From assembly GCA_031418635.1 (NCBI GenBank), contig JANOXW010000255.1:1-25176 (forward strand): a DNA stretch of 25,176 nucleotides. Reading direction: 5' to 3'. Of this stretch, positions 5,112 through 24,236 are shown piece after piece. Position 1 is the stretch's first letter, and every line of letters begins with the position of its first letter. Made by a program: the position numbers and the translations under genes. The notes beneath the pieces are model-generated. The model did no database searches, was not told the origin of the DNA, and saw only the letters and a list, made by a program, of their open reading frames with translations. The stretch comes from Acidobacteriota bacterium (GTDB taxonomy: Bacteria; Acidobacteriota; Blastocatellia; Pyrinomonadales; Pyrinomonadaceae).

Positions 5112-6470
5112 TTAATATAAAGAAATTCGCTTTAATGCCCGATGGATTTCAGGATTTTGCATAAACCATTGCCAATTTTTTCTGGTTCGCAAATTTTCCG
5201 CGCTCAACAGCGTAATGCCGACATCAATGCCAATGACATATTGATTTACCCAACCGTTATTCGGATTAAAAGCGTCGGCAAATCCATAATTTCCATAAAT
5301 TGTTTTTCCGAACCGCGATTTCATTTCTAAAAGCGCGGGCAGTGTAATTTCCGGCATAAACATCAGCGAACCGGCGGGCGCACACGGCACGACTGTTCCG
5401 TCAATTGCCGCATCACGCGGCGGTGCGCCCCAAGCAATATAACCTTTTTGACTGTCCGAAGCCGTCAAGCCCCAAATGTTTTCCGAATAGCCCGCAAATT
5501 GTTTGGTCAAAGTCTGGAAAAAGGCTTTCTGCGCTTTAGTTGCGTTGACCGAATTTTCAAAATAATCGGTGTATGGACGACGGCGTTCACGTTTCCCGCG
5601 AAAATCAATCCAAGCGTGTGAATATTGGTGAATAAAAAGCGGCGAAACGGCGGCAAGATAACGATAGCCGTAAAATGTGCGCCATTCTCTTTTCCAAGCA
5701 TACCAAACTTTCGGCGAAACCGAATGCGTCGGCGAACCGATTGCCAAAATATACAACAACATCTGTTCGCTGTAATCTCTCCAACGCGCCGTTAAAAATC
5801 CCGTTTCAGGCTTCCAGCCGTGCGAAAAAAGATTTGAACTTCCCGCCAACATCCACGGAAAATCAACTCTTTCGTAAATCTGTGTGGCTAACTTAACGAT
5901 TTCTTTATCGTCCGAAAAACATTGCCGCACGGTTAAAACTCCGCCAAGCAGAAGCGTGGTATCAATCGAAGAAATCTCGCTGTTCCAACGCCGTTCGCCC
6001 GTCTGTTTGTCCAACCAATGATAAAACCAACCGTTTTTATGCGGTGCGCGATTGAGCAAAAAATCGAGCGATTTTCGGGCGCGTTCTTTGGCTTCGACAG
6101 ATGTTACCCAATTATTATCTGCCGCAATGCACAAACCCGACAAACCGAAACCTTCCGCGCCAACACTAGCAATATTATAACTCGGATGCGTTGTTGGTAA
6201 AGGCTTTCCGTCAGTTCGTGCGCGGTCAAGCGTCAAACCCGTTTCCGCGTCGGATTGTTCCCAAAAATAAAGAAAAGCGCGATGTTCTAAATCTTCTAAA
6301 AAAGCCTCGTCGGTTTCTGTTAGCTGATAAACCTTTGGCTTTTGTTTTCTGCTTTGACGACTTTGCGCTGTCGCAAAATTGTTGCCGACAAACGACAGCA
6401 AAAGCAAAAACAAAGTGAGAAAATAGCTCAAACGCAGTAAGCTGTTTTTCTCAGGTAATCGAAAATTCAT
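5112..6470 (-). CDS. Secreted Glycoamylase-domain (PF10091-type) glycoside hydrolase, GH144-like endo-beta-1,2-glucanase
   Basis: 452 aa; signal peptide; motifs RAFLYFWEQ, GFGLS, EISSIDT, DYSEQMLLYILAIGSP, PLFIHQYSHAWIDFR, WGLTASD, DGTVVP, YGFADAFNP, IGIDVG. The exact subfamily within the beta-1,2-glucanase clan is not resolvable by eye. Confidence 0.8.
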   Translation of the reverse strand: MNFRLPEKNSLLRLSYFLTLFLLLLSFVGNNFATAQSRQSRKQKPKVYQLTETDEAFLEDLEHRAFLYFWEQSDAETGLTLDRARTDGKPLPTTHPSYNIASVGAEGFGLSGLCIAADNNWVTSVEAKERARKSLDFLLNRAPHKNGWFYHWLDKQTGERRWNSEISSIDTTLLLGGVLTVRQCFSDDKEIVKLATQIYERVDFPWMLAGSSNLFSHGWKPETGFLTARWRDYSEQMLLYILAIGSPTHSVSPKVWYAWKREWRTFYGYRYLAAVSPLFIHQYSHAWIDFRGKRERRRPYTDYFENSVNATKAQKAFFQTLTKQFAGYSENIWGLTASDSQKGYIAWGAPPRDAAIDGTVVPCAPAGSLMFMPEITLPALLEMKSRFGKTIYGNYGFADAFNPNNGWVNQYVIGIDVGITLLSAENLRTRKNWQWFMQNPEIHRALKRISLY

Positions 6471-13200: not shown

Positions 13201-13794
13201 TTCAGTTTGGAAAATCGAACTGTTGGAACCGCCCGGACCGGGCGAATTCGGAAAACCGCTCGAACCTCCGTTGCCGCCGCGTGCGCCGTCGCCAAAAATT
13301 CCCGGCGTTAAGCGTGCTAACTCGTAAGGATCGCGCCCAACCTGCGGCAGACGCAAAATTTCCTTAGTCGAGAGAGTGTTGTCAATGTTCGCGTCTTCAG
13401 TTTTGAGCGTTTCTGCTTCACTCGTTACCGTCACGATTTCGCTGATTCCGCCGGTTTCGAGCGCAATATTTAAACCTTGCAAGCCGTCTGCCCCGACCTC
13501 TACTTTTTCAACCACGTATTGTTTGAAATTTGTTTGCGTAACGACAAGTTTGTAGTTTCCCGGAGCAAGTCCGTTAAAACGATAAAATCCATCATTATTT
13601 GATACTGTGCTGACTTCTTTGTTGGTTTCGGTATTTGTCAAAACGACATTTGCGCCAACTACGGAAGATCCGCTTGAATCAGACACAGTTCCTTGTAATA
13701 CTGCCTTGAATTGCGCGTTGGCAATCAGCGCAAAACACAGAATTAAAACGCTACAACTTAAAAAGCGTTGTAAGCCGGAAAACTTTCGGTTCAT
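10246..13794 (-). CDS. TonB-dependent receptor, acidobacterial Oar-like type with an N-terminal carboxypeptidase-regulatory-like domain
   Basis: About 1180 aa; signal peptide; N-terminal LQGTVSDSSG...G.Y.L.V domain; plug motifs NNFQIDGVS, YSAEDGRNSG; barrel motifs YAFFVQDDWKVRPNLTVNLGLRYE and DKNNFGPQIGIAY; C-terminal F. RBS GGAGGTG favours ATG 13794. Confidence 0.93.
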   Translation of the reverse strand: MNRKFSGLQRFLSCSVLILCFALIANAQFKAVLQGTVSDSSGSSVVGANVVLTNTETNKEVSTVSNNDGFYRFNGLAPGNYKLVVTQTNFKQYVVEKVEVGADGLQGLNIALETGGISEIVTVTSEAETLKTEDANIDNTLSTKEILRLPQVGRDPYELARLTPGIFGDGARGGNGGSSGFPNSPGPGGSNSSIFQTENQVPITANGQRVEANNFQIDGVSVNSQTNGGGAIITPSQEAVKEVNISSSTYSAEDGRNSGAVVKVVSQNGTNDYHGSGFFKYNDPGLNSFNKFPNAPARVTQRLKQFGGSFGGPLPFLNFGEGGPFATSGKDKLFFFFAYEGLRNNTNTTSDAFVETSQFRDAVRALRPNGVTARVFGAPGIAPRILSVLPTTCAAAGYGPQRCQAVSGGLDIGSITGTRNVYLPFGDGVGRANIGGGFDGIPDVQFVRLNVPNTFAGNQYFTRVDYNATAKDSIAVSTFFTPTLANGSDIAGRSRPIGDIISDRLSFSVAAIYNRTISATKFNQARVNYSGFSYDEVASNPGSNFGIPRIEIEQLPFDRIRFGAPQNENTPGILSEKSVDFSDTFNWLIGNHALKFGTQLRFDINERSLIGGARPIFTFTGFFNLANDTPIFEGINADPNTGTPASAERRYRTNDYAFFVQDDWKVRPNLTVNLGLRYEFFPPISDGLNQQTNLIFGPNGLSDSRVELVDQFFQSDKNNFGPQIGIAYSPGFLKNKAVIRGGFGIGYNRIPSVVFINSLANPPFFSRFGICCGTAGPAGGDGFGSPFVDGQILYALGSSNSPNSFPRNPLLGGGINPMTGLPFNSSVEIYGSPQNQPNAQSFRYSLEGQYQLPAKLTATVGYQGSANQNLIRLVNQNFIFANVNPRIFQAFLPTPDVISRYNALLATLERRFANGFQFQANYRFAKSLDNLSNSGPGFVTNQTFPVDNDSEYGPSDFDVRHNLNVFGLWDLPIFRNRNDLVGTFLGGWQVNGIVTWHTGFPFTPVVANQGIRSASGAEFGPFRPIGFFGGAGNNTSNDTFLNGNGNFTGSFIAGANCRAAMGVGCNRIFQTTLNRNLMGQTSFLVNPPGIGRNGFRGPRYFSTDISISKRFDLPKGLRISENTGLDLRVNLFNAFNNLNLAPFGFASDSTRINNDDNPNPRFGRATTGLAGRVIELQARFSF

Positions 13795-13861
13795 AGAAAA
13801 CACCTCCAGAGCAATTTTTTTAAATATTTAGAATTATTTGAACAACTGTCGAAAAACGAAT

Positions 13862-13892
13862 TAGTAAATCGTTTCACTAAATCGTTTTAGTA
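13862..13892. promoter_or_regulatory. Two overlapping LacI-type operators
   Basis: Imperfect palindromes with central CG: TAGTAAATCGTTTCACTA (13862-13879) and CACTAAATCGTTTTAGTA (13875-13892); the core TAAATCGTTT repeats at 13-bp spacing; they lie between divergent lacI and TBDR genes. Confidence 0.7.
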
Positions 13893-13902
13893 ATGTTACA
13901 AA

Positions 13903-13930
13903 TTTATACTAAACATTAAGTTCCCGTCAA
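13903..13930 (-). promoter_or_regulatory. Putative sigma70 promoter for the TBDR
   Basis: Minus strand TTGACG (13925-13930), 16-nt spacer, TATAAA (13903-13908). The predicted start near 13896 lies just upstream of the operators. Confidence 0.55.
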
Positions 13931-13997
13931 CAACAAATCATAAAATGTTGGTTAATAATAAAATTTTCAGCCTATTCTTGTCTTAAAAGGTTTAGTT

Positions 13998-15089
13998 ATG
14001 CGACACTTACCACAACGTCGGGCGATAATGATGAAAAAAGACAAATCCAACGGGTTTTCAAAAGTTATGACCAAGCCAAAAGCGGTTAGCCTTAAAGAAC
14101 TTGCTGCGTCGCTCAAACTTTCGCCAACGACGGTTTCATTAGTTTTGAACGCTGCGCCGACGGCGAGTTCGATTCCGACCGGAACGCAAGATCGCATTTT
14201 TGAAGCAGCGCGAAATCTGAAATATCGCCCAAATCACATCGCCCGTTCATTACGCGCCCAACGCACACATACTATTGGCGTTTTGATTCCCGAAATGAGC
14301 GAAGGTTATTCGGCGACGGTTTTGAGTGGTGTCGAAGAAAAATTGTTGGAAGAAGGATATTTTTACTTCGTCGTCAGTCATTGGCATCGTGAAGCACTTA
14401 TCGAACATCATTCGCGTTTTTTTGTTGAAAGATGTGTCGAGGGAATTTTAGCGGTTGATACGCCGCAACATCATCAAACCTTTTTGCCGGTTGTTTCAAT
14501 TTCTGGACACGACGAAACCAAAGGTGTTACAAATATCGTCTTAAATCATGAACAAGCCGGACTTCTGGCGGTTGAACATCTGGTCAAACTCGGACATAAA
14601 AAAATCGCCGTCATCAAAGGACAATCATTTAGCTCTGATACAGAAGCGCGTTGGAACGCGATTCGGACAGCGGCGGCGCGATGTTCAATTCCGATAAAAG
14701 AAACTTTGGTTGCACAACTTGTCGGAACTAATCCGACACCCGAACCCGGATATGTTGCCGCCAAAGAATTATTAGCCGCTAAAGCTGAGTTTACGGCACT
14801 TCTTGCTTTTAATGACATTTCTGCTATCGGTGCAATTCGCGCTCTGAATGAATCTGGCAGACGAGTTCCCGAAGACGTTTCGGTCATCGGGTTTGACGAT
14901 ATTTACGCGGCGGAATTTCATAATCCGTCGCTTACGACCATTCGCCAACCGCTGAAAGAAATGGGTTGTTTGGGCGCGGAATATTTGTTGAAAAGAATCC
15001 GCGAAAATCAAAGCGACGATTTTCCCGCCGACGTAACCGTTGAGCCGGAATTAGTAATTCGTCAATCAACCGCCGCAGTCAAAAACTAA
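13998..15089 (+). CDS. LacI-family transcriptional regulator
   Basis: HTH VSLKELAASLKLSPTTVSLVLN; hinge YRPNHIARSL; sensor motifs FNDISAIGAIRAL and VPEDVSVIGFDD...PSLTTIRQP. The start could be a downstream ATG. Confidence 0.95.
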   Translation: MRHLPQRRAIMMKKDKSNGFSKVMTKPKAVSLKELAASLKLSPTTVSLVLNAAPTASSIPTGTQDRIFEAARNLKYRPNHIARSLRAQRTHTIGVLIPEMSEGYSATVLSGVEEKLLEEGYFYFVVSHWHREALIEHHSRFFVERCVEGILAVDTPQHHQTFLPVVSISGHDETKGVTNIVLNHEQAGLLAVEHLVKLGHKKIAVIKGQSFSSDTEARWNAIRTAAARCSIPIKETLVAQLVGTNPTPEPGYVAAKELLAAKAEFTALLAFNDISAIGAIRALNESGRRVPEDVSVIGFDDIYAAEFHNPSLTTIRQPLKEMGCLGAEYLLKRIRENQSDDFPADVTVEPELVIRQSTAAVKN

Positions 15090-15133
15090 AGCGGTCAATT
15101 TATCCTGCAATTTCAAAATTAGGAGATTTCTAA

Positions 15134-18518: not shown

Positions 18519-21500
18519 CTATTTCGGTTCGCCTTGAAGCGTGAAAGTCGCCCAGAAATATGGATTTTGCCAGCGTTTGTCTTTGAGCAGAGAAATCTGT
18601 GCTTGTCGCAAAGCGGACGCGGGCGACAATTTTTTGCCGCCGAGCATTTCGCGGTAAAAATTCGCCATCAATTCGGCAGTTCCCTCGTCGTTCACGTCCC
18701 AAAGACTGACGACGACGCGCTTTGCGCCCGCATACATAAAGCCGCGTGTCATTCCGATTAAGCCTTCACCGCGAATTTCTTTGCCCAAACCCGTGCGGCA
18801 ACCACTTAGAACAACCATTTCCGCCGGCAGTTTCAGATTAAAAATATCGTTGACGCGCAGAAATCCATCTTGCTCTTTGCCGCTTTCGTCAATCGTCGAA
18901 AAAACGATGCCCGAAAGTTCGGGATTTTCGTTGTTGATAAAACCGTGCGTGGCAAAATGAATGTAACGATAATTTGCCAATTCGGGCGACATTGCTGAAC
19001 TTCGATTTGCCGCAAAATCTAACATTTTTTCTTTTTGATTTTCGGCAACCAACGCACTTATCGAATCGGCTTCGCGCCGCGTGAACGGCAATCGCAGCAA
19101 ATCCATATCGCCAACGTCAGAACTTCGCAGACGTTTTTTTGAAACAGCGACAAACTCCGTTGGCGGTTTATTTTGCTCCGCCATCAATTGAAATCTCTCG
19201 TCCGTTTTATCAAAAATCGGGTCAGCCAAAACCGCCAAAGTTTTCGCCGCAAGCGGTCTGCCGTTCATTTCACGCCGTAAAATCGCCAAAGCTGACGCAG
19301 AAGGTAAATTAACAATTTCGTGTTCTTCAATTAAAAATCGTTCTTCGACTTTGGACTTTGGACTTTGGACTTTGGACTTTGGAACAGTAAGCGAAGCGAA
19401 CGGAACATATTGCAACGCGCCGTCGGCGACGATTAGCAGACGTTTGCTTTCTAAAAACGGCGCAGCAGGCGCGAGGATTTGTTGGCTCAATTCCTTTGAA
19501 AATTTCTGCAAATCCGAATCGGTGATAAAGATTCGGTCGGCGCGTTCATTCGCGGTTTCAAATTCGATTTGCTTGTTTCGCGCTGTTAGAGATTCGTAAA
19601 ATTGCCGCGCCGTTTTTTCGATAATGGATTTCGCGGGCAGTTCGACGGTGCGAAAATTATCTTTTGAAACAATCCACAGATAGCTTTTTTCTTCGCCCAA
19701 AGCGTATTCGAGCAAAACGGAATCGGTATCTAAAAGTTCGCTTTGAATTTCTTTGAGAGTCAATGTTTTCGGTTGTTTAAGTGCTGCATAACGCGGATTT
19801 TGGCGACGAATTTGCGATTGTGTTTGTTCGTAATCGGTGCGGAGTTGGGCGATTTCGTTTTTTAGCTCGGCGATTTTCACCGCCTCCGATTTTCGACTTA
19901 AAGCCTTTGTCAAATTTTCAAATCTTGCCGTCAACGAGTTTCCGAGTTCTTTTTCCTTAGCCAAAAGACTTTCGTTCACGCCTTGCCGAATATCAATGTT
20001 TGATTCGGTTAAAAGATTCAAAAGACCGCGGGCGCGGGCGCGTTCATTTGCTTGAAGCGCAAGTTCGGCGAAGTTTTTGTTTGGTTCGAGTTTCTGACGT
20101 TGCATCAAAAGTTCGATATACGCGCTATAATAATTGTAAATCGTCGTCGAAAAAGAATCGCGTAAAGTGTTATTACTCATCTCGGCGCGAAAACCCTCAA
20201 TCAAGTTTAAGGCTTCTTCGATATGAGTTTGCGCTTCGTCCGTTTTTCCTAATCGGCTTTTGATCTTTGTTAGCAAATATAATGTTTTGGTAATGCGCGT
20301 CGGGTCTTCGATGGTGCGATATATGTCTAAAGATTTCTCCGCAAACTCCGTTGCTTCTGCCAATTTGCCGAGTTTTAAGTAAAATTCACCGAGAGTTTTC
20401 AAGAAAAACGCTTCGTTAGATTTATCGCTCTGTGTTTGTGCGATCTTCAAGGCTTCGTTTAGATATTCAAAGCCTTTGTCGGTGTTGCCGAGTTGAAAAT
20501 ATGAACGACCTAAGTTGCTGAAATAGCTTGGTTCAGGTTGTCTGCCAGACAAACTTTTATGCAAAGCAATCGCTTTTTCGTAATATTCGACGGCTTTTTG
20601 ATAATCCTTGTTTTCGTTGACGCAGTTTCCCATATAATTTAGCGTGATTGCCTGATTATATTTGTCATCGGTTTCTTCAAAGAGTTTGAGAGCCGCAACG
20701 TGATAGCTTTCGGCACGCGGCGCATCTTGCAAGCGGTAATAAATCGCGCCGATTCCATTGAGCGCAATGCCTTCGGTTTTTTTATTTTTCACTTCCTTTG
20801 AAAGTGCGAGCGATTCCGTCAAAATTTCGATTGCCTTTTGTCTTTCGCCGAGATACGCATAAACTCTGCCAAGACTATTTAATGCGTAGGATTGTTGTTT
20901 TTTATCGCCAATCGCCCGAAAAATTTCCAAAGAACGCTGATGAAATTCGATAGCTTTGCGTCGTTCGCCCAATCCTGTCAGTAAAATTCCGATGTTATCG
21001 AGAGCGACGGCTTCGGGTTTCTGTGCTTGTGCAAACTGAAATTTTTCGATTGCTTCCTGAAATTTTTTGATAGCGATTTGGATGTTTCCGAATGATGAAT
21101 CGGCTTTGATGAGTATTTCCATCTCGCTCATTATTCGTTTGCCGTCGGTGTAGCTGAATTCCTTTTCGGTTGCCGTGCGTAATTCGATAATGTTTAAGCG
21201 ATAATTTCCGTCGGTTTTATCAGCTGTGGTAACGCTTATTTGATAATCGCCCGCTTTTCTGACGGCGGCGTTGAGCGTTTCGGTTTCGTTCGTCGAACTG
21301 ACGGTTATTCCGTCCAACATAAACTTCCCGTCGGGTTCAAACATACTGACAGCGATAATGCCGTTGGTCGAAGTCGCGCTAATCTTTACAAATTGCCCAT
21401 TTTCGAGATGAATTTTGTAAAGATGTTTTTGCTTCGGCGAAACTTCGCGTGTTATCGCTTGTCCTTCTGACAGCGTTTTGACCTCTTCGGCAGTCTGACT

Positions 21501-21575
21501 TTGCGCGTTGGTCGGCAAAAACAGTAAAACTAAAATAAAATTGGCGGCAATTATTTCGATAAATCTATTTTTCAT
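18519..21575 (-). CDS. Secreted TPR-CHAT (caspase-like HetF/CHAT) protease with an N-terminal PPC-like beta-sandwich
   Basis: RBS AAGGAG spacing favours ATG 21575. Signal peptide (ILVLLFLPTNA-QSQ); PPC-like domain (KHLYKIHLENGQFV...); about 7 TPRs; CHAT motifs LLIVADGALQYVPFASL, IHFATHG (His codon 18945-18947), VVLSGCRTG (Cys codon 18798-18800), VVVSLWDVND, PYFWATF. Confidence 0.93.
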   Translation of the reverse strand: MKNRFIEIIAANFILVLLFLPTNAQSQTAEEVKTLSEGQAITREVSPKQKHLYKIHLENGQFVKISATSTNGIIAVSMFEPDGKFMLDGITVSSTNETETLNAAVRKAGDYQISVTTADKTDGNYRLNIIELRTATEKEFSYTDGKRIMSEMEILIKADSSFGNIQIAIKKFQEAIEKFQFAQAQKPEAVALDNIGILLTGLGERRKAIEFHQRSLEIFRAIGDKKQQSYALNSLGRVYAYLGERQKAIEILTESLALSKEVKNKKTEGIALNGIGAIYYRLQDAPRAESYHVAALKLFEETDDKYNQAITLNYMGNCVNENKDYQKAVEYYEKAIALHKSLSGRQPEPSYFSNLGRSYFQLGNTDKGFEYLNEALKIAQTQSDKSNEAFFLKTLGEFYLKLGKLAEATEFAEKSLDIYRTIEDPTRITKTLYLLTKIKSRLGKTDEAQTHIEEALNLIEGFRAEMSNNTLRDSFSTTIYNYYSAYIELLMQRQKLEPNKNFAELALQANERARARGLLNLLTESNIDIRQGVNESLLAKEKELGNSLTARFENLTKALSRKSEAVKIAELKNEIAQLRTDYEQTQSQIRRQNPRYAALKQPKTLTLKEIQSELLDTDSVLLEYALGEEKSYLWIVSKDNFRTVELPAKSIIEKTARQFYESLTARNKQIEFETANERADRIFITDSDLQKFSKELSQQILAPAAPFLESKRLLIVADGALQYVPFASLTVPKSKVQSPKSKVEERFLIEEHEIVNLPSASALAILRREMNGRPLAAKTLAVLADPIFDKTDERFQLMAEQNKPPTEFVAVSKKRLRSSDVGDMDLLRLPFTRREADSISALVAENQKEKMLDFAANRSSAMSPELANYRYIHFATHGFINNENPELSGIVFSTIDESGKEQDGFLRVNDIFNLKLPAEMVVLSGCRTGLGKEIRGEGLIGMTRGFMYAGAKRVVVSLWDVNDEGTAELMANFYREMLGGKKLSPASALRQAQISLLKDKRWQNPYFWATFTLQGEPK
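19347..19383. repeat. Perfect heptamer tandem repeat (GACTTTG)x5 inside the CHAT domain
   Basis: Five exact copies at 19347-19381 plus GA; translated as VPKSKVQSPKSKV between FASL and RFLIEEHEIV. Confidence 0.95.
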
Positions 21576-21766
21576 TTCCATCTCCTTCTCGCTTGTAAAA
21601 AAAATCGAATATTTAAGACAGAATCAATTTACCGAAAAGGCAGGTTGATAATCTTTAGAGAAATCTGAATGTTTTATGAATATTTTATGATGAAATTATT
21701 TGACGGTTGGGCATAATTTATCGCGTTTGCGGTGGTTTGTAAGTATTTATGCACACTATGCAGGCA

Positions 21767-21955
21767 AATTTTATCACTACAAAACTATTTCTTAGTGCTA
21801 CAAAGTCATTTCGTAGCGATACAAAACCATTTTGTAGTGGTATGAAATGACTTTGTAGTGCTATAAAATCATTTCGTAGTGGTATGAAATTATTTTGTAG
21901 TGCTACAAAACTATTTCGTAGTGGTATGAAACCATTTCGTAGTGATAGAAAATTA
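21767..21955. repeat. Tandem array of eight (plus one partial) 21-bp palindromic units
   Basis: Units start at 21788, 21809, 21830, 21851, 21872, 21893, 21914 and 21935; consensus TTTYGTAG-TG-STAYRAAA-NNA. The unit at 21893 (TTTTGTAG TG CTACAAAA) is a perfect 8-bp inverted repeat. Confidence 0.92.
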
Positions 21956-22079
21956 CTTTTTATCGCAAAAAAGGCGGTAAATTGACAGGAATCGGACAAA
22001 AAATAAACTGCATTAGCAAAAAATCTTTCAGATTCGGTTAAATTTATTGTTGCGCGATTGATTCATACACCAACTTCAA

Positions 22080-24236
22080 TTATTTTGTCTGCTTTGTTTT
22101 CGCTAAATCGTTGGCAATTCGCGCTGAAAGTTTGGAGATTGCGCCGACGTATTTCCAACCTGAAACACGCTTTCGAGTTGGATAAACGACGAAGCCTTGA
22201 GAATTTACAAGCCGCACAATCGCCGTCGTTGTTTCGTCTGTCGGATTGTTTGCGTCAGATTCGCGGCGCACAAAAATCATCAAACGCGCGTCAGCTTTTT
22301 CTTTCGGCACAATCGTAAAAGTTCCGTTTTTGAAAATCTCGGCAGAAATTTGTTCCTTAATTTGTCTGCTAAAACTTTCGTCGCCCGAAATATCGAGATA
22401 AATATGCTTGATTTCGCCCAAAGACTTTCCGCGTTTGATCGGACTGCGAACTTCTTTACGCTCATCAATATTATTGCCCTTTTCTCTAATCGGCAATCGC
22501 CAAACTTCCGTCGGGTTTGCATCGTTCGGTAAATTTTTCGGCTTGTTATTTTGCGCCTGTAACTCTTTTGGCGGAGTTTCAACCACGATTTCTTTTTTCG
22601 GCGCGACTCGCTTTTTATCTTCCGAGTTCGGCTTTTTGTCTTTTTTAATTACTGAATCGTTTTGTTCTTTAACCTTCGGCGGCGAAACGATTTTTTCGGA
22701 CGTTTCTTTGTCATCTTTGACAATTTCCTTTGATGGTTCGGGAATTTTGATGTCGTCCGTTTGCTTTTTCGGCGTTGGATTATCGTGAGCAACATCTTGT
22801 TTGTTCGCGCCAATCATTTGCCGATAAAACAGCCAACCGATTGACATTGCCAAAAGAATCAGTCCAAACGCCAACGCCGGTTTGAACGCCCAACTTAGAT
22901 TGTTGAACCAATTTGACAGCGAAAATCCGACGTTTTCGGAAGCCACAATCAAAGGTTTCGGCAATTCCGTTTCGGCATATTCGACACCGCAATTTATTCC
23001 GACGACTTCGCCGTATTCGTCCTTTGTCGGTTGCAAATTGAACGAAACTTTTTGTCCGCCTTCGAGCAAAACCGATTGGAGTTGATTGCCGTTTTCCAAG
23101 TCTTCAAAGCTCAAAAGATGCGTCGCTAAAATCACTTCGCCGTCTTTTTCAACTACGCGAACCTCGATTAATTCGGCTTCGTCGCCCAAATCGAAATTTA
23201 CTTGGTCGGTTTCTTCAAGATTGATTTTCGCTCTTTCGTTGCCGTCCACGACGACGCGCAAAAGGTTGGCGGACAGTGCGCGACGGCTTTCGGCTTGCGC
23301 CGCGAGAAGGTCTTTGATGGTTTGCAATTCGTCCGCTTCAAGATTCGGCGGATTGCGCCAATCGTCGTTGTTCTCGTTTGGTTGAATGTTTGAAAGCATA
23401 AATTTGGGAATCTCCATTTTTTCTTTGGGCGCAGGCAAATTCAAAGCGTCGGTCAAACGCGCAAAGCATTGCGGATGTAAAGCCGCGTGAATGCGGTTGA
23501 CCTCGATGCGATGTTCCGCGTCGGGATTTTGTTTGTCGAAATGAAACGGCGCGATGATGTCGTCAAACGGATTAAATTTGTCGGGAATCGCGCAAGAACT
23601 GTTCCAAGGCGTGAAAAATTGTAAGCAATCTTTCGCCGTTTCTGATAATTTTTCCGTGTCTGTTTGATGATTAAACCGTTCTTCGCCGCGATTGACTTTA
23701 ACGACTTCGAGAAGTTCGCCGAAACGCGCCTTTAATTCCTTCATCAAAACGCCTTTCCGCGAACGATAATAGTAATCGTCGTGAACTCGGTCAGCGTCTT
23801 GAACGACGATATTATAGATTTCCATCGCGTCATTCGTGCCGTAATTGTGCAAAATCCGCGAAATGCCAAGCGTTACATAAAACGAATTGCGCTTTAACGA
23901 AATACGAACTAAGTGTTTGATGAAATAGACGAGCAAGTTTCTTTCACTCGTCTTTTTCGTCGCTTCATTTTGTTTTTCAAAGTTCTCCGATTCGACAAAA
24001 ACGAGCCGTTGCAAAAGTTGTAAATCATTTAAAGAAACACGGCTGCGCGTCGCCCGCGAAGTTTCAGCGCGTCCGACGGGCGTGTAGTAATAGCGTTTGA
24101 ACTGCGCGTTGGAAGCGGTTTCGAGTTTGTTCATCGCAGACACAGCAATTTGCTTGGCGATGTCGCGCTTGCCATGTATAAAAAAAGCAAGCTGAAACGC
24201 CTTGTTAAGCCAATCGTCTATCTGATTTGTCTTCAT
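22080..24236 (-). CDS. Single-pass membrane protein; putative divergent ECF-sigma / zinc anti-sigma fusion with a periplasmic C-terminal domain
   Basis: 718 aa; no signal peptide. Residues 9-38 follow an ECF sigma2 pattern and residues 118-172 a sigma4 pattern. H250-x3-H254-x2-C257 plus C204/C215; one TM near residues 450-470; K/E/P-rich linker; alpha/beta C-terminal domain. The ORF is certain; the domain call is inference. Confidence 0.6.
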   Translation of the reverse strand: MKTNQIDDWLNKAFQLAFFIHGKRDIAKQIAVSAMNKLETASNAQFKRYYYTPVGRAETSRATRSRVSLNDLQLLQRLVFVESENFEKQNEATKKTSERNLLVYFIKHLVRISLKRNSFYVTLGISRILHNYGTNDAMEIYNIVVQDADRVHDDYYYRSRKGVLMKELKARFGELLEVVKVNRGEERFNHQTDTEKLSETAKDCLQFFTPWNSSCAIPDKFNPFDDIIAPFHFDKQNPDAEHRIEVNRIHAALHPQCFARLTDALNLPAPKEKMEIPKFMLSNIQPNENNDDWRNPPNLEADELQTIKDLLAAQAESRRALSANLLRVVVDGNERAKINLEETDQVNFDLGDEAELIEVRVVEKDGEVILATHLLSFEDLENGNQLQSVLLEGGQKVSFNLQPTKDEYGEVVGINCGVEYAETELPKPLIVASENVGFSLSNWFNNLSWAFKPALAFGLILLAMSIGWLFYRQMIGANKQDVAHDNPTPKKQTDDIKIPEPSKEIVKDDKETSEKIVSPPKVKEQNDSVIKKDKKPNSEDKKRVAPKKEIVVETPPKELQAQNNKPKNLPNDANPTEVWRLPIREKGNNIDERKEVRSPIKRGKSLGEIKHIYLDISGDESFSRQIKEQISAEIFKNGTFTIVPKEKADARLMIFVRRESDANNPTDETTTAIVRLVNSQGFVVYPTRKRVSGWKYVGAISKLSARIANDLAKTKQTK

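What the first reader, a model, noticed from the sequence alone, without database searches (positions are those of the whole stretch)
21767..21976. Array of 21-bp palindromic units (about two helical turns each) between the sigma-like and protease genes
Seen: eight contiguous units, each an inverted repeat around a 2-nt centre with a 3-nt spacer. In the overlapping minus-strand ORF, Leu is always CTA and most changes are non-synonymous, which points to DNA/RNA-level constraint. Established: a 21-bp period places sites on one helix face, as in iteron or operator arrays. Inference: a multi-site platform for a dimeric DNA-binding protein (possibly the released N-terminal domain), or serial hairpins that tune read-through into the protease gene. 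There are no unique spacers, so it is not CRISPR.
Basis: partly seen in the sequence, partly recalled or inferred. Interest (0 to 1): 0.65.

Follow-up and report, generated by a model that had tools for sequence, protein, structure and literature searches.

The report
Solo 21-bp repeat array, recent insertion
The 21-bp repeat array is real and non-coding, but it is a recent insertion that the sister species lacks: a stray copy of a kind of exactly-21-bp array that normally sits upstream of an uncharacterised ~230-residue protein gene, so it is not a built-in control site of the two flanking genes.

Summary
The array is confirmed: nine 21-bp units at 21777-21965, each a 17-bp AT-rich imperfect palindrome plus a GYGN spacer, and non-coding. 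The closest relative (G001) keeps both genes 113 bp apart with no array. The window instead carries a 376-bp insertion (21702-22077), bounded by a direct AATTATTT and weak terminal inverted repeats. The same unit family lies between unrelated genes (DUF58/VWA and a 188-aa ORF) in this genome. This Pyrinomonadaceae MAG holds at least 61 tandem arrays of exactly 21 bp, each with its own unit; 49 are intergenic.

Key result: a family of ~200-235-aa proteins (helical N-terminus, fn3-like C-terminus, no Pfam) has such an array upstream at 9 of 9 testable loci here. In 14 of 15 loci from six other genera the strongest upstream period is also 21 bp. The scan noted this pairing before on other DNA (e1-3851900). 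In G001 the window's unit type sits 168 bp upstream of such a gene. The window array is therefore a solo copy.

Best reading (0.45): a phased DNA-level binding platform for a trans factor. A functionless remnant is nearly as likely (0.30). The function of the class is unknown.

The parts
21777..21965 (.). Tandem array of nine 21-bp units (17-bp imperfect AT-rich palindrome TAnnAAA-NNN-TTTnnTA plus GYGN spacer); non-coding
   Evidence: register and pair counts; non-coding; identical in three assemblies
21702..22077 (.). 376-bp insertion relative to the sister species G001; it contains the array plus 75 bp (left) and 112 bp (right) of sequence found nowhere else in the genome
   Evidence: Alignment A1 with L022; flanks have no other copy; ends located
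21694..21701 (+). Left copy of the direct repeat AATTATTT that bounds the insertion (target-site-duplication-like)
   Evidence: read directly from the sequence
22078..22085 (+). Right copy of the direct repeat AATTATTT; overlaps the stop codon of the 718-aa gene
21702..21725 (+). Left arm of an imperfect terminal inverted repeat of the insertion (17 of 22 aligned positions match the right arm, two gaps)
   Evidence: local alignment score 15, shuffle p 0.03; single copy in the genome
22053..22077 (-). Right arm of the imperfect terminal inverted repeat
21982..22009 (+). Sigma-70-like promoter match (TTGACA-16-TAAACT, 10/12) 17 bp right of the array, pointing away from it and antisense into the 3' end of the 718-aa gene; it lies where two array-gene modules have a promoter-like site
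   Evidence: compare. A consensus match only
21582..21690 (-). Promoter-like block directly upstream of the CHAT gene, conserved in seven relatives (TTCATAA..TTCAGA..TCTAAAGATT); the insertion lies upstream of it
21718..21999 (-). 93-aa open frame across the array (heptad L-R/Q-N-x-F-x-x); judged not a gene
   Evidence: only a sub-threshold Pfam match, below the family cut-off
18519..21581 (-). Flanking gene: 1020-aa TPR + CHAT protein; its start lies 195 bp from the array
   Evidence: CHAT 4.7e-68
22080..24236 (-). Flanking gene: 718-aa protein with no Pfam, NCBIfam or PADLOC family; its stop lies 115 bp from the array

Best explanation
The array is a solo copy of a class of non-coding arrays with an exact 21-bp period. 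Their home context is a two-part module: an array, then 40-470 bp downstream a gene for an uncharacterised ~200-235-aa protein with a helical N-terminal part and an fn3-like C-terminal domain.

Shown:
- The array arrived in this lineage inside a 376-bp insertion just after the stop codon of the 718-aa gene.
- Its unit type (TACAAA...TTYGTAGYG) also occurs in the older array at the DUF58 locus, with which it shares a 46-nt stretch at 98% identity.
- In the sister species this unit type is the upstream array of a module gene.

Inferred:
- In the modules the arrays work on DNA. Identical sites every two helical turns present one face of the helix to a factor that binds cooperatively and is specific for the unit type. 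The cognate family protein or a partner is the candidate.
- Units are homogenised within an array by unequal exchange or conversion.
- Solo copies arise by insertion or ectopic copying.
- At this locus the solo array, about 90-110 bp upstream of the conserved CHAT promoter block, could bring the CHAT gene under that factor's control. It is dispensable for the gene pair, and the 718-aa protein is not its binder.
For: Insertion and its absence in the sister species.

Same unit family at unrelated loci: the C167/C649 array between a DUF58/VWA gene and a 188-aa ORF. G001's orthologous locus L031 confirms that these two contig ends are contiguous. The 46-nt stretch at 98% identity is. A third locus lies in G001.

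Class: the tandem-repeat period histogram of the genome peaks at 7 bp (379 loci) and 21 bp (61 loci), with 7 loci at 20 and none at 22-23. 49 of the 61 are intergenic although about 86% of the genome is coding. None of 36 intergenic arrays shows codon periodicity.

Gene pairing: 9 of 9 family genes with upstream sequence have a lag-21 array (identity 0.63-0.77; null 99th percentile 0.63). Two more genes are cut at contig ends. In 14 of 15 loci from six other genera the best lag among 15-27 is exactly 21. The gene next to G001's TACAAA-type array matches the family profile at 95% probability, E 2.9e-8.

Co-occurrence: G000 and G001 have both genes and arrays. G019 and G047 have neither in the samples taken.

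Four of nine gene-linked arrays share a unit type with solo arrays elsewhere. Arrays at orthologous positions in G000 and G001 keep the period and a similar copy number while the units change in concert. Promoter-like sites lie between array and gene in two modules, and at the matching side of the window array.
Against: No DNA binding was shown. The family protein's model has no recognisable DNA-binding fold; only the fn3 domain finds matches.

The distance from array to gene varies from about 40 to 470 bp. A promoter-like site between array and gene was seen clearly in only 2 of 5 modules scanned, so the arrays could lie in 5' leaders.

Some arrays keep hairpin potential through compensatory changes. 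Array2 has 69/77 paired positions against a shuffle mean of 60.7 (p < 0.0005). The C48 array shows 2-3 double changes between species. This points to structure rather than base-specific protein contacts.

In this genome no family gene lies next to any TACAAA-type array, so a cognate factor may be missing. The window array has no covariation and degenerate arms, as expected for a decaying copy.
Confidence: 0.45

Rival explanations
1. Functionless remnant. The array is a dispersed, selfish or neutral minisatellite copy that landed in a tolerant spot just after a stop codon. It does nothing for either neighbour and is decaying.
For: - It is absent in the sister species, where the gene pair is intact.
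- Variable arm positions do not covary, and 5 of 9 units carry arm mismatches or wobbles.
- The same site holds other, unrelated hairpin or repeat inserts in four more distant relatives.
- 21-bp arrays are under-represented in divergent promoter regions (4 of 39 against 28% of background intergenic regions), as expected if insertions are merely tolerated near 3' ends.
- No cognate family gene was found next to this unit type in this genome.
Against: The array is identical, with no indels, in three samples from two studies, although contigs hide rare variants. The period is still exact and nine units are retained. Other arrays of the class stay in position between species.
Confidence: 0.3
2. 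RNA-level element. The array is transcribed as the 3' untranslated region of the 718-aa mRNA and folds into serial hairpins or one long imperfect hairpin that blocks read-through into the CHAT gene or protects the mRNA 3' end.
For: - Both strands fold far better than shuffles: minus strand -58.8 kcal/mol, z -6.7; plus strand -76.3 kcal/mol, z -9.6.
- The array lies 115 nt downstream of the stop codon, on the path to a co-oriented gene.
- Relatives carry other hairpin-forming inserts at the same spot.
- 96 of 379 heptamer arrays in the genome form inverted pairs in intergenic DNA.
Against: - G-U-compatible mismatches are split between the strands (8 on plus, 6 on minus), and the non-coding plus strand folds better.
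- No U-tract terminator was found.
- The sister array lies in a divergent 5'-5' region.
- Only about 10 of 46 arrays of the class have a clearly palindromic unit, so hairpins do not define the class.
- No RNA run could be listed, and Rfam gives only sub-threshold hairpin noise.
Confidence: 0.12
3. REP-like element. The palindromic, GTAG-containing units are single-strand DNA hairpins recognised by an HUH/Y1 transposase (RAYT-like), which would also explain their dispersal.
For: - Units contain GTAG/CTAC beside the stem.
- Tandem head-to-tail REP clusters are described (PMC3733652).
- The genome encodes at least five Y1_Tnp proteins.
- The insertion has a target-duplication-like repeat.
Against: - Only two loci exist, not hundreds.
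- The G of GTAG sits at a variable position and is replaced in array2 (CTAG, ATAC, TTAG).
- No Y1 gene is flanked by this unit; only one of five lies near any 21-bp array, and that array belongs to a family gene.
- Stems are AT-rich and weak.
Confidence: 0.05
4. Locus-specific operator. The array is the binding platform of the released N-terminal domain of the neighbouring 718-aa protein.
For: Physical proximity, the 21-bp phasing and the dyad symmetry of the units.
Against: - The array is absent from the closest relative, whose 718-aa protein is 84% identical, and from all seven other relatives with the gene pair.
- The same units sit at unrelated loci.
- No sigma or DNA-binding family was detected in the 718-aa protein.
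Confidence: 0.03
5. Coding. The 93-aa minus-strand frame encodes a heptad-repeat protein, and that explains the 21-bp period.
For: The frame is open across the whole array in the window. A similar frame is open in G001's DUF58-locus array.
Against: - Array2 of the same family has stops in all six frames.
- There is no codon periodicity.
- The start is TTG with no Shine-Dalgarno-like sequence upstream (read).
- Because the unit is a palindrome, both strands give similar 'peptides'.
Confidence: 0.02

Closest known systems
Iteron and operator arrays (e.g. the seven 22-bp iterons of R6K gamma ori, the 22-bp iterons of pPS10; AraC/XylS half-sites spaced 21 bp) - from my own knowledge, not tested here
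   Same: Head-to-tail repeats of 17-22 bp with a period close to two helical turns. In the home module they lie next to one particular gene. The units are specific to each locus.
   Different: No replication or regulator gene is adjacent in the window. The partner gene family has no recognisable DNA-binding fold. There are dozens of arrays per chromosome, many of them solo. Binding is untested.
The '21-bp upstream array + ~230-residue protein' pairing noted earlier in this scan (e1-3851900); not found in Pfam, NCBIfam, PHROGs, PADLOC or in my literature searches
   Same: Exact 21-bp period and non-coding DNA, with a different unit sequence at each locus. The window's unit type sits upstream of a family gene in the sister species.
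   Different: In the window no family gene is adjacent, so this is a solo copy inside a 376-bp insertion.
REP/BIME elements, GTAG-tagged palindromic repeats (PMC3733652)
   Same: Short extragenic palindromes that can be reiterated in tandem, with GTAG next to the stem.
   Different: There are two loci rather than hundreds. The GTAG is not conserved. Stems are AT-rich. No cognate RAYT gene is present.
Bacterial minisatellites/VNTRs and heptamer repeats (cyanobacterial STRR; TAACTGA repeats, PMC4679880; Xanthomonas/Nostoc heptamers, PMC4692102)
   Same: Intergenic and fast-evolving, with concerted evolution within an array. They coexist with 379 heptamer arrays in the same genome, and 21 = 3 x 7.
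   Different: The period is locked at exactly 21 bp across unrelated unit sequences. The arrays pair with one gene family. No copy-number variation was seen in three samples.
CRISPR arrays
   Same: Partly palindromic repeats in tandem, homogenised within an array.
   Different: There are no spacers at all, and the units are 21 bp and contiguous.

Membership tests
CRISPR array | Repeats separated by unique spacers of similar length | tested here: not met
   Units are contiguous at exact 21-bp spacing.
REP/BIME (GTAG-tagged REP) | High copy number of dispersed palindromes (usually >100 per genome) | tested here: not met
   Only C255 and the C167/C649 locus carry the unit.
REP/BIME (GTAG-tagged REP) | Conserved GTAG tetranucleotide at one end of the stem | tested here: not met
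   GTAG is present in most window units but replaced by CTAG, ATAC or TTAG in array2. The G occupies a variable stem position.
REP/BIME (GTAG-tagged REP) | Cognate RAYT (Y1 transposase) gene flanked by the REPs | tested here: not met
   At least five Y1_Tnp genes exist; none is flanked by this unit.
Iteron/operator array | Phased direct repeats of about 17-22 bp | tested here: met
   Nine units at exactly 21 bp.
Iteron/operator array | Adjacent gene for the protein that binds the repeats | tested here: not met
   No family gene or recognisable regulator lies next to the window array. In G001 the same unit type lies 168 bp upstream of a family gene, but that protein shows no DNA-binding fold.
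Iteron/operator array | Sequence-specific protein binding to the unit | not testable with these tools
   Needs EMSA, DAP-seq or ChIP.
21-bp array + fn3-family gene module (scan class e1-3851900) | Non-coding tandem array with a period of exactly 21 bp and a locus-specific unit | tested here: met
21-bp array + fn3-family gene module (scan class e1-3851900) | Family gene within about 500 bp downstream of the array | tested here: not met
   No member on contig C255. Met for the same unit type in G001. Hence 'solo copy', not a full member.
Type III toxin-antitoxin antitoxin RNA (ToxI-like) | Tandem repeats (about 34-40 nt) directly upstream of a ToxN/AbiQ-type endoribonuclease gene | tested here: not met
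   The period is 21 bp. The neighbours are a TPR-CHAT gene and an unassigned 718-aa gene. The 718-aa neighbour has no PADLOC match.
MITE (non-autonomous transposon) | Terminal inverted repeats plus target-site duplication | tested here: inconclusive
   8-bp direct repeat at both junctions; terminal inverted repeat matches 17 of 22 positions, shuffle p 0.03.
MITE (non-autonomous transposon) | Multiple copies sharing the ends | tested here: not met
   The ends and flanks of the insertion are unique in the genome.
Heptad-repeat protein gene | Open frame kept in all copies, with variation concentrated at synonymous positions | tested here: not met

The most novel reading that the evidence does not exclude
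The window array is a stray copy of the cis element of an undescribed and widespread two-part system. A length-locked (exactly 21 bp) but sequence-free tandem array is coupled to a small helical+fn3 protein. Each protein paralogue would recognise, or even generate and disperse, its own unit type. Solo arrays such as this one would then wire unrelated genes (here a TPR-CHAT protease gene) into that protein's control.
Probability: 0.25. Interest if true: 0.8.

Novelty: new variant of a known kind. Interest (0 to 1): 0.55.

Why it matters
On its own the array is a lineage-specific repeat with no demonstrated role, and the attractive story of a sigma/anti-sigma protein binding it does not hold. 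It matters as an entry point. It belongs to a class of arrays whose length is fixed at exactly 21 bp while the sequence is free, and which accompany one uncharacterised protein family in several genera. The language-model protein atlas lists look-alike clusters from other phyla. Something in these cells measures or requires two helical turns (or three heptamers). The sister-species pair G000/G001 gives natural 'with array' and 'without array' versions of the same promoter region, which makes the question testable.

Tried and rejected
- **Rfam scan of the region:** only sub-threshold miRNA-type hairpin matches, all below the gathering scores. Rejected as noise from self-complementarity.
- **Coding reading:** rejected.
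- **CRISPR, ToxI-like and REP readings:** rejected on defining features (see the membership table).
- **Common leader or flank motif beside all 21-bp arrays:** the enriched k-mers came from degenerate array edges of two families. No shared motif was found.
- **Other copies of the insertion's non-array flanks or ends:** none. Alignment of these flanks with the array-to-gene spacer of G001's module gave no convincing similarity.
- **Exact-consensus search in 60 relatives:** no array outside G000. This count includes the unpublished genome G017, and the DUF58-locus survey includes the unpublished G015. G458 was left out.
- **My own errors:**
  - The two metagenome pattern scans used patterns that I later found do not match the window itself: one base too long, and a misplaced W.
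  - The phylum-wide pattern missed even G000.
- **RNA runs:** none could be listed, so transcription is untested.
- **Libraries for the family protein and neighbours:**
  - PHROGs and PADLOC gave no hits.
  - The PDB profile search found only weak matches: myomesin fn3 domains (E about 0.001) and designed TPR-like repeats (E 0.0035, 0.48).
  - The fold search found only fn3 domains.
- **Link to the 188-aa neighbour of array2:** it is not a family member.
- **Literature searches:** no description of 21-bp period-locked arrays in bacteria.

Full report
**1. The observation**

The window comes from a fragmented metagenome-assembled genome (G000: 869 contigs, 4.5 Mb, 89% complete). Record titles of related loci place it in Acidobacteriota, Pyrinomonadaceae.

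Tandem Repeats Finder finds a 21-bp period with 8.4 copies and 76% matches at 21777-21952, plus a 42-bp super-period at 81%. The repeat finder gives eight copies at exact 21-bp spacing. In register there are nine units, 21777-21965, each TAnnAAA-NNN-TTTnnTA followed by GYGN. The upstream regions of 325 random genes reach a best lag-21 identity of only 0.39 (median) and 0.63 (99th percentile).

Three sediment-metagenome assemblies from two studies carry the whole stretch with an identical array. They show no indels and two SNPs, both outside the array.

**2. Not coding, no known RNA family**

- The 93-aa minus-strand frame is open here, but the sister array of the same unit family has stop codons in all six frames.
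- Unit variation shows no codon periodicity (13/5/8 by phase, p 0.41).
- Because the unit is a palindrome, both strands translate to similar heptads.
- Rfam gives only sub-threshold hairpin noise.
- Both strands fold much better than shuffles (z -6.7 and -9.6), as any self-complementary array must. G-U-compatible mismatches are split between the strands (8 against 6).
- Within this array the variable arm positions do not covary (48/63 paired, shuffle mean 49.9, p 0.91).

**3. The locus and its relatives**

The array lies between the stop codon of a 718-aa gene (22080-24236, minus strand; no Pfam, NCBIfam or PADLOC family) and the start of a 1020-aa TPR-CHAT gene (18519-21581, minus strand).

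- Eight related loci were fetched. In seven of them a CHAT-type gene follows the 718-aa homologue; the eighth locus ends just past that gene.
- The closest relative, G001, is in the same genus and its 718-aa protein is 84% identical. It has a 113-bp spacer and no array.
- Alignment A1 shows a clean insertion in the window, 21702-22077 (376 bp). The insertion is bounded on both sides by AATTATTT; the right copy overlaps the stop codon.
- The ends of the insertion form a weak inverted repeat (17 of 22 positions, shuffle p 0.03).
- The 110 bp next to the CHAT start (21582-21690) is conserved in all seven relatives and looks like the promoter region. The insertion lies upstream of it.
- Four more distant relatives carry other, unrelated hairpin or repeat inserts at the same spot.
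- The non-array parts of the insertion have no other copy in G000 or G001.

**4. The same unit family elsewhere**

A second array lies at the end of contig C167 and the start of C649. The two ends overlap by 23 nt. The orthologous locus of G001 (L031) proves they are contiguous: DUF58/VWA gene, then array, then a 187/188-aa ORF.

- This 'array2' shares a 46-nt stretch at 98% identity with the window array.
- Its units are better palindromes with real covariation: TAG/CTA, TAC/GTA, TAT/ATA, TAGG/CCTA and TATG/CATA. 69 of 77 positions pair, against a shuffle mean of 60.7 (p < 0.0005).
- G001's array at that locus keeps the position and the period, but its units have changed in concert. One change is compensatory: TAGAAAA/TTTTCTA became CGAAAA/TTTTCG.
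- G001 has a third locus with TACAAA...TTYGTAGCG units.
- In 60 relatives no other genome has the consensus (this count includes the unpublished G017).

**5. A genome-wide class**

- A tandem-repeat census of G000 gives a period histogram with two peaks: 7 bp (379 loci) and 21 bp (61 loci). There are 7 loci at 20 bp and none at 22-23 bp.
- 49 of the 61 arrays are intergenic although about 86% of the genome is coding.
- Each array has its own unit. The 62 arrays analysed (the 61 plus one weaker upstream array) fall into 39 unit types.
- None of 36 intergenic arrays shows codon periodicity.
- Only about 10 of 46 have a clearly palindromic unit. The exact period, not the hairpin, defines the class.
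- No common flank motif exists.
- Arrays at C808 and C48 are kept in position in G001 with diverged units. C48 shows 2-3 compensatory arm changes.

Sampling of other genomes:

| Genome | Relation | Sample | Heptamer arrays | 21-bp arrays |
|---|---|---|---|---|
| G001 | sister species | 232 kb, unbiased | 12 | 2 |
| G019 | same genus, complete genome | 400 kb | 13 | 0 |
| G047 | another family, 60% GC | 400 kb | 0 | 0 |

**6. The gene family**

Clustering the genes that flank the arrays revealed a family of ~200-235-aa proteins with no Pfam, NCBIfam, PHROGs or PADLOC match apart from a weak fn3 signal.

- A profile search of all G000 open frames finds twelve pieces, about eleven genes.
- All nine genes with upstream sequence have a 21-bp array within 500 bp upstream (lag-21 identity 0.63-0.77). 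Two more genes are cut at contig ends.
- Seven of 30 other genera of the family Pyrinomonadaceae carry the gene, with up to 14 copies per genome.
- In 14 of 15 loci from six of these genera the strongest upstream period among 15-27 bp is exactly 21. Downstream controls score 0.31-0.56 (the unpublished G458 was left out).
- G001 has ten copies. G019, G008, G028 and G047 have none. This matches where 21-bp arrays were and were not seen.
I found the ~230-aa flank-gene cluster with upstream arrays before reading that note and tested the pairing afterwards.
- The gene 168 bp downstream of G001's TACAAA-type array matches the family profile built from G000 members alone (probability 95%, E 2.9e-8, 174 columns).
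- Four of nine gene-linked arrays share their unit type with solo arrays elsewhere.
- The family protein models as a helical N-terminal part plus an fn3 domain. Only the fn3 domain finds structural matches, so no DNA-binding fold is evident.

**7. Interpretation**

The window array is a solo copy of a module-type array that was inserted recently. It is not a component of the 718-aa/CHAT pair.

For the class, an exactly conserved period with free sequence, an obligatory position upstream of one gene family, and concerted evolution are best explained by a DNA-level, phased multi-site platform. I hold this at 0.45 because:
- no binding protein is identified;
- promoter-like sites between array and gene are seen clearly in only two of five modules scanned;
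- compensatory changes in some arrays point to hairpin formation.

A functionless remnant (0.30) fits the degenerate arms of the window copy. An RNA hairpin barrier (0.12) cannot be excluded without transcript data. The 718-aa operator (0.03) and coding (0.02) readings are contradicted.

**8. Limits**

- My three wide pattern scans were mis-specified and say nothing.
- Gene positions in G000 come from a crude longest-ORF call.
- Co-occurrence of arrays and the gene family rests on four genomes.
- Contig-level read laying hides rare length variants.

Noticed in passing
G000 genome-wide; in the window e.g. 19347-19383: There are 379 heptamer tandem arrays, mainly AAAATCC (80 loci) and AAAGTCC (53 loci); 12 are of the TAACTGA type. 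96 have an inverted copy of the same heptamer array within 120 nt and so form long hairpins. The (GACTTTG)5 tract inside the CHAT gene belongs to the AAAGTCC family, so it is one of many such tracts and not a locus-specific switch.
   Followed up: partly
G000 contigs C260, C301, C600 and others: Eight of eleven PF05635 (23S rRNA intervening-sequence protein) genes have a heptamer or octamer array within about 100 nt. Three are bracketed by inverted arrays. This agrees with earlier scan notes that heptamer arrays form the arms of IVS-like cassettes.
   Followed up: partly
window 21582-21690 (minus strand) and L022-L029: A promoter-like block (TTCATAA..TTCAGA..TCTAAAGATT) directly upstream of the CHAT gene is conserved in seven relatives that carry the 718-aa/CHAT pair. 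It is a candidate target of a dedicated regulator.
   Followed up: no
L025, L027, L028, L029, just after the 718-aa homologue's stop codon: Four relatives carry different long inverted-repeat or heptamer-hairpin inserts at the same position as the window's insertion, so the site is an insertion hot spot or a terminator position.
   Followed up: no
G000:C676:2683-5784 and array 5891-5990; same unit at C38:5890-6062: A second TPR-CHAT paralogue (31% identical over 1032 aa) has a different 21-bp array 106 bp downstream of its stop codon.
   Followed up: no
G000:C840:13697-15123: One array (14455-14551) lies between a family gene (13697-14299, minus strand) and a Y1_Tnp transposase gene (14767-15108, minus strand). 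This is the only Y1 gene near a 21-bp array.
   Followed up: partly
G000:C600:561-1784: Here the family gene is followed directly by a PF05635 gene flanked by heptamer arrays, so the two repeat systems sit side by side.
   Followed up: no
G467 (14 copies), G001 (10), G000 (about 11); none in G019, G008, G028, G025: The fn3-family gene is patchily distributed within one genus and multi-copy where present. This suggests horizontal spread or mobility of the module.
   Followed up: partly
G000:C648:8431-8540: One 21-bp array is truly coding (the heptad MNAANTA repeated, with variation concentrated at one codon phase, p 0.03). A minority of the 21-bp arrays are therefore heptad-repeat protein segments.
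   Followed up: no
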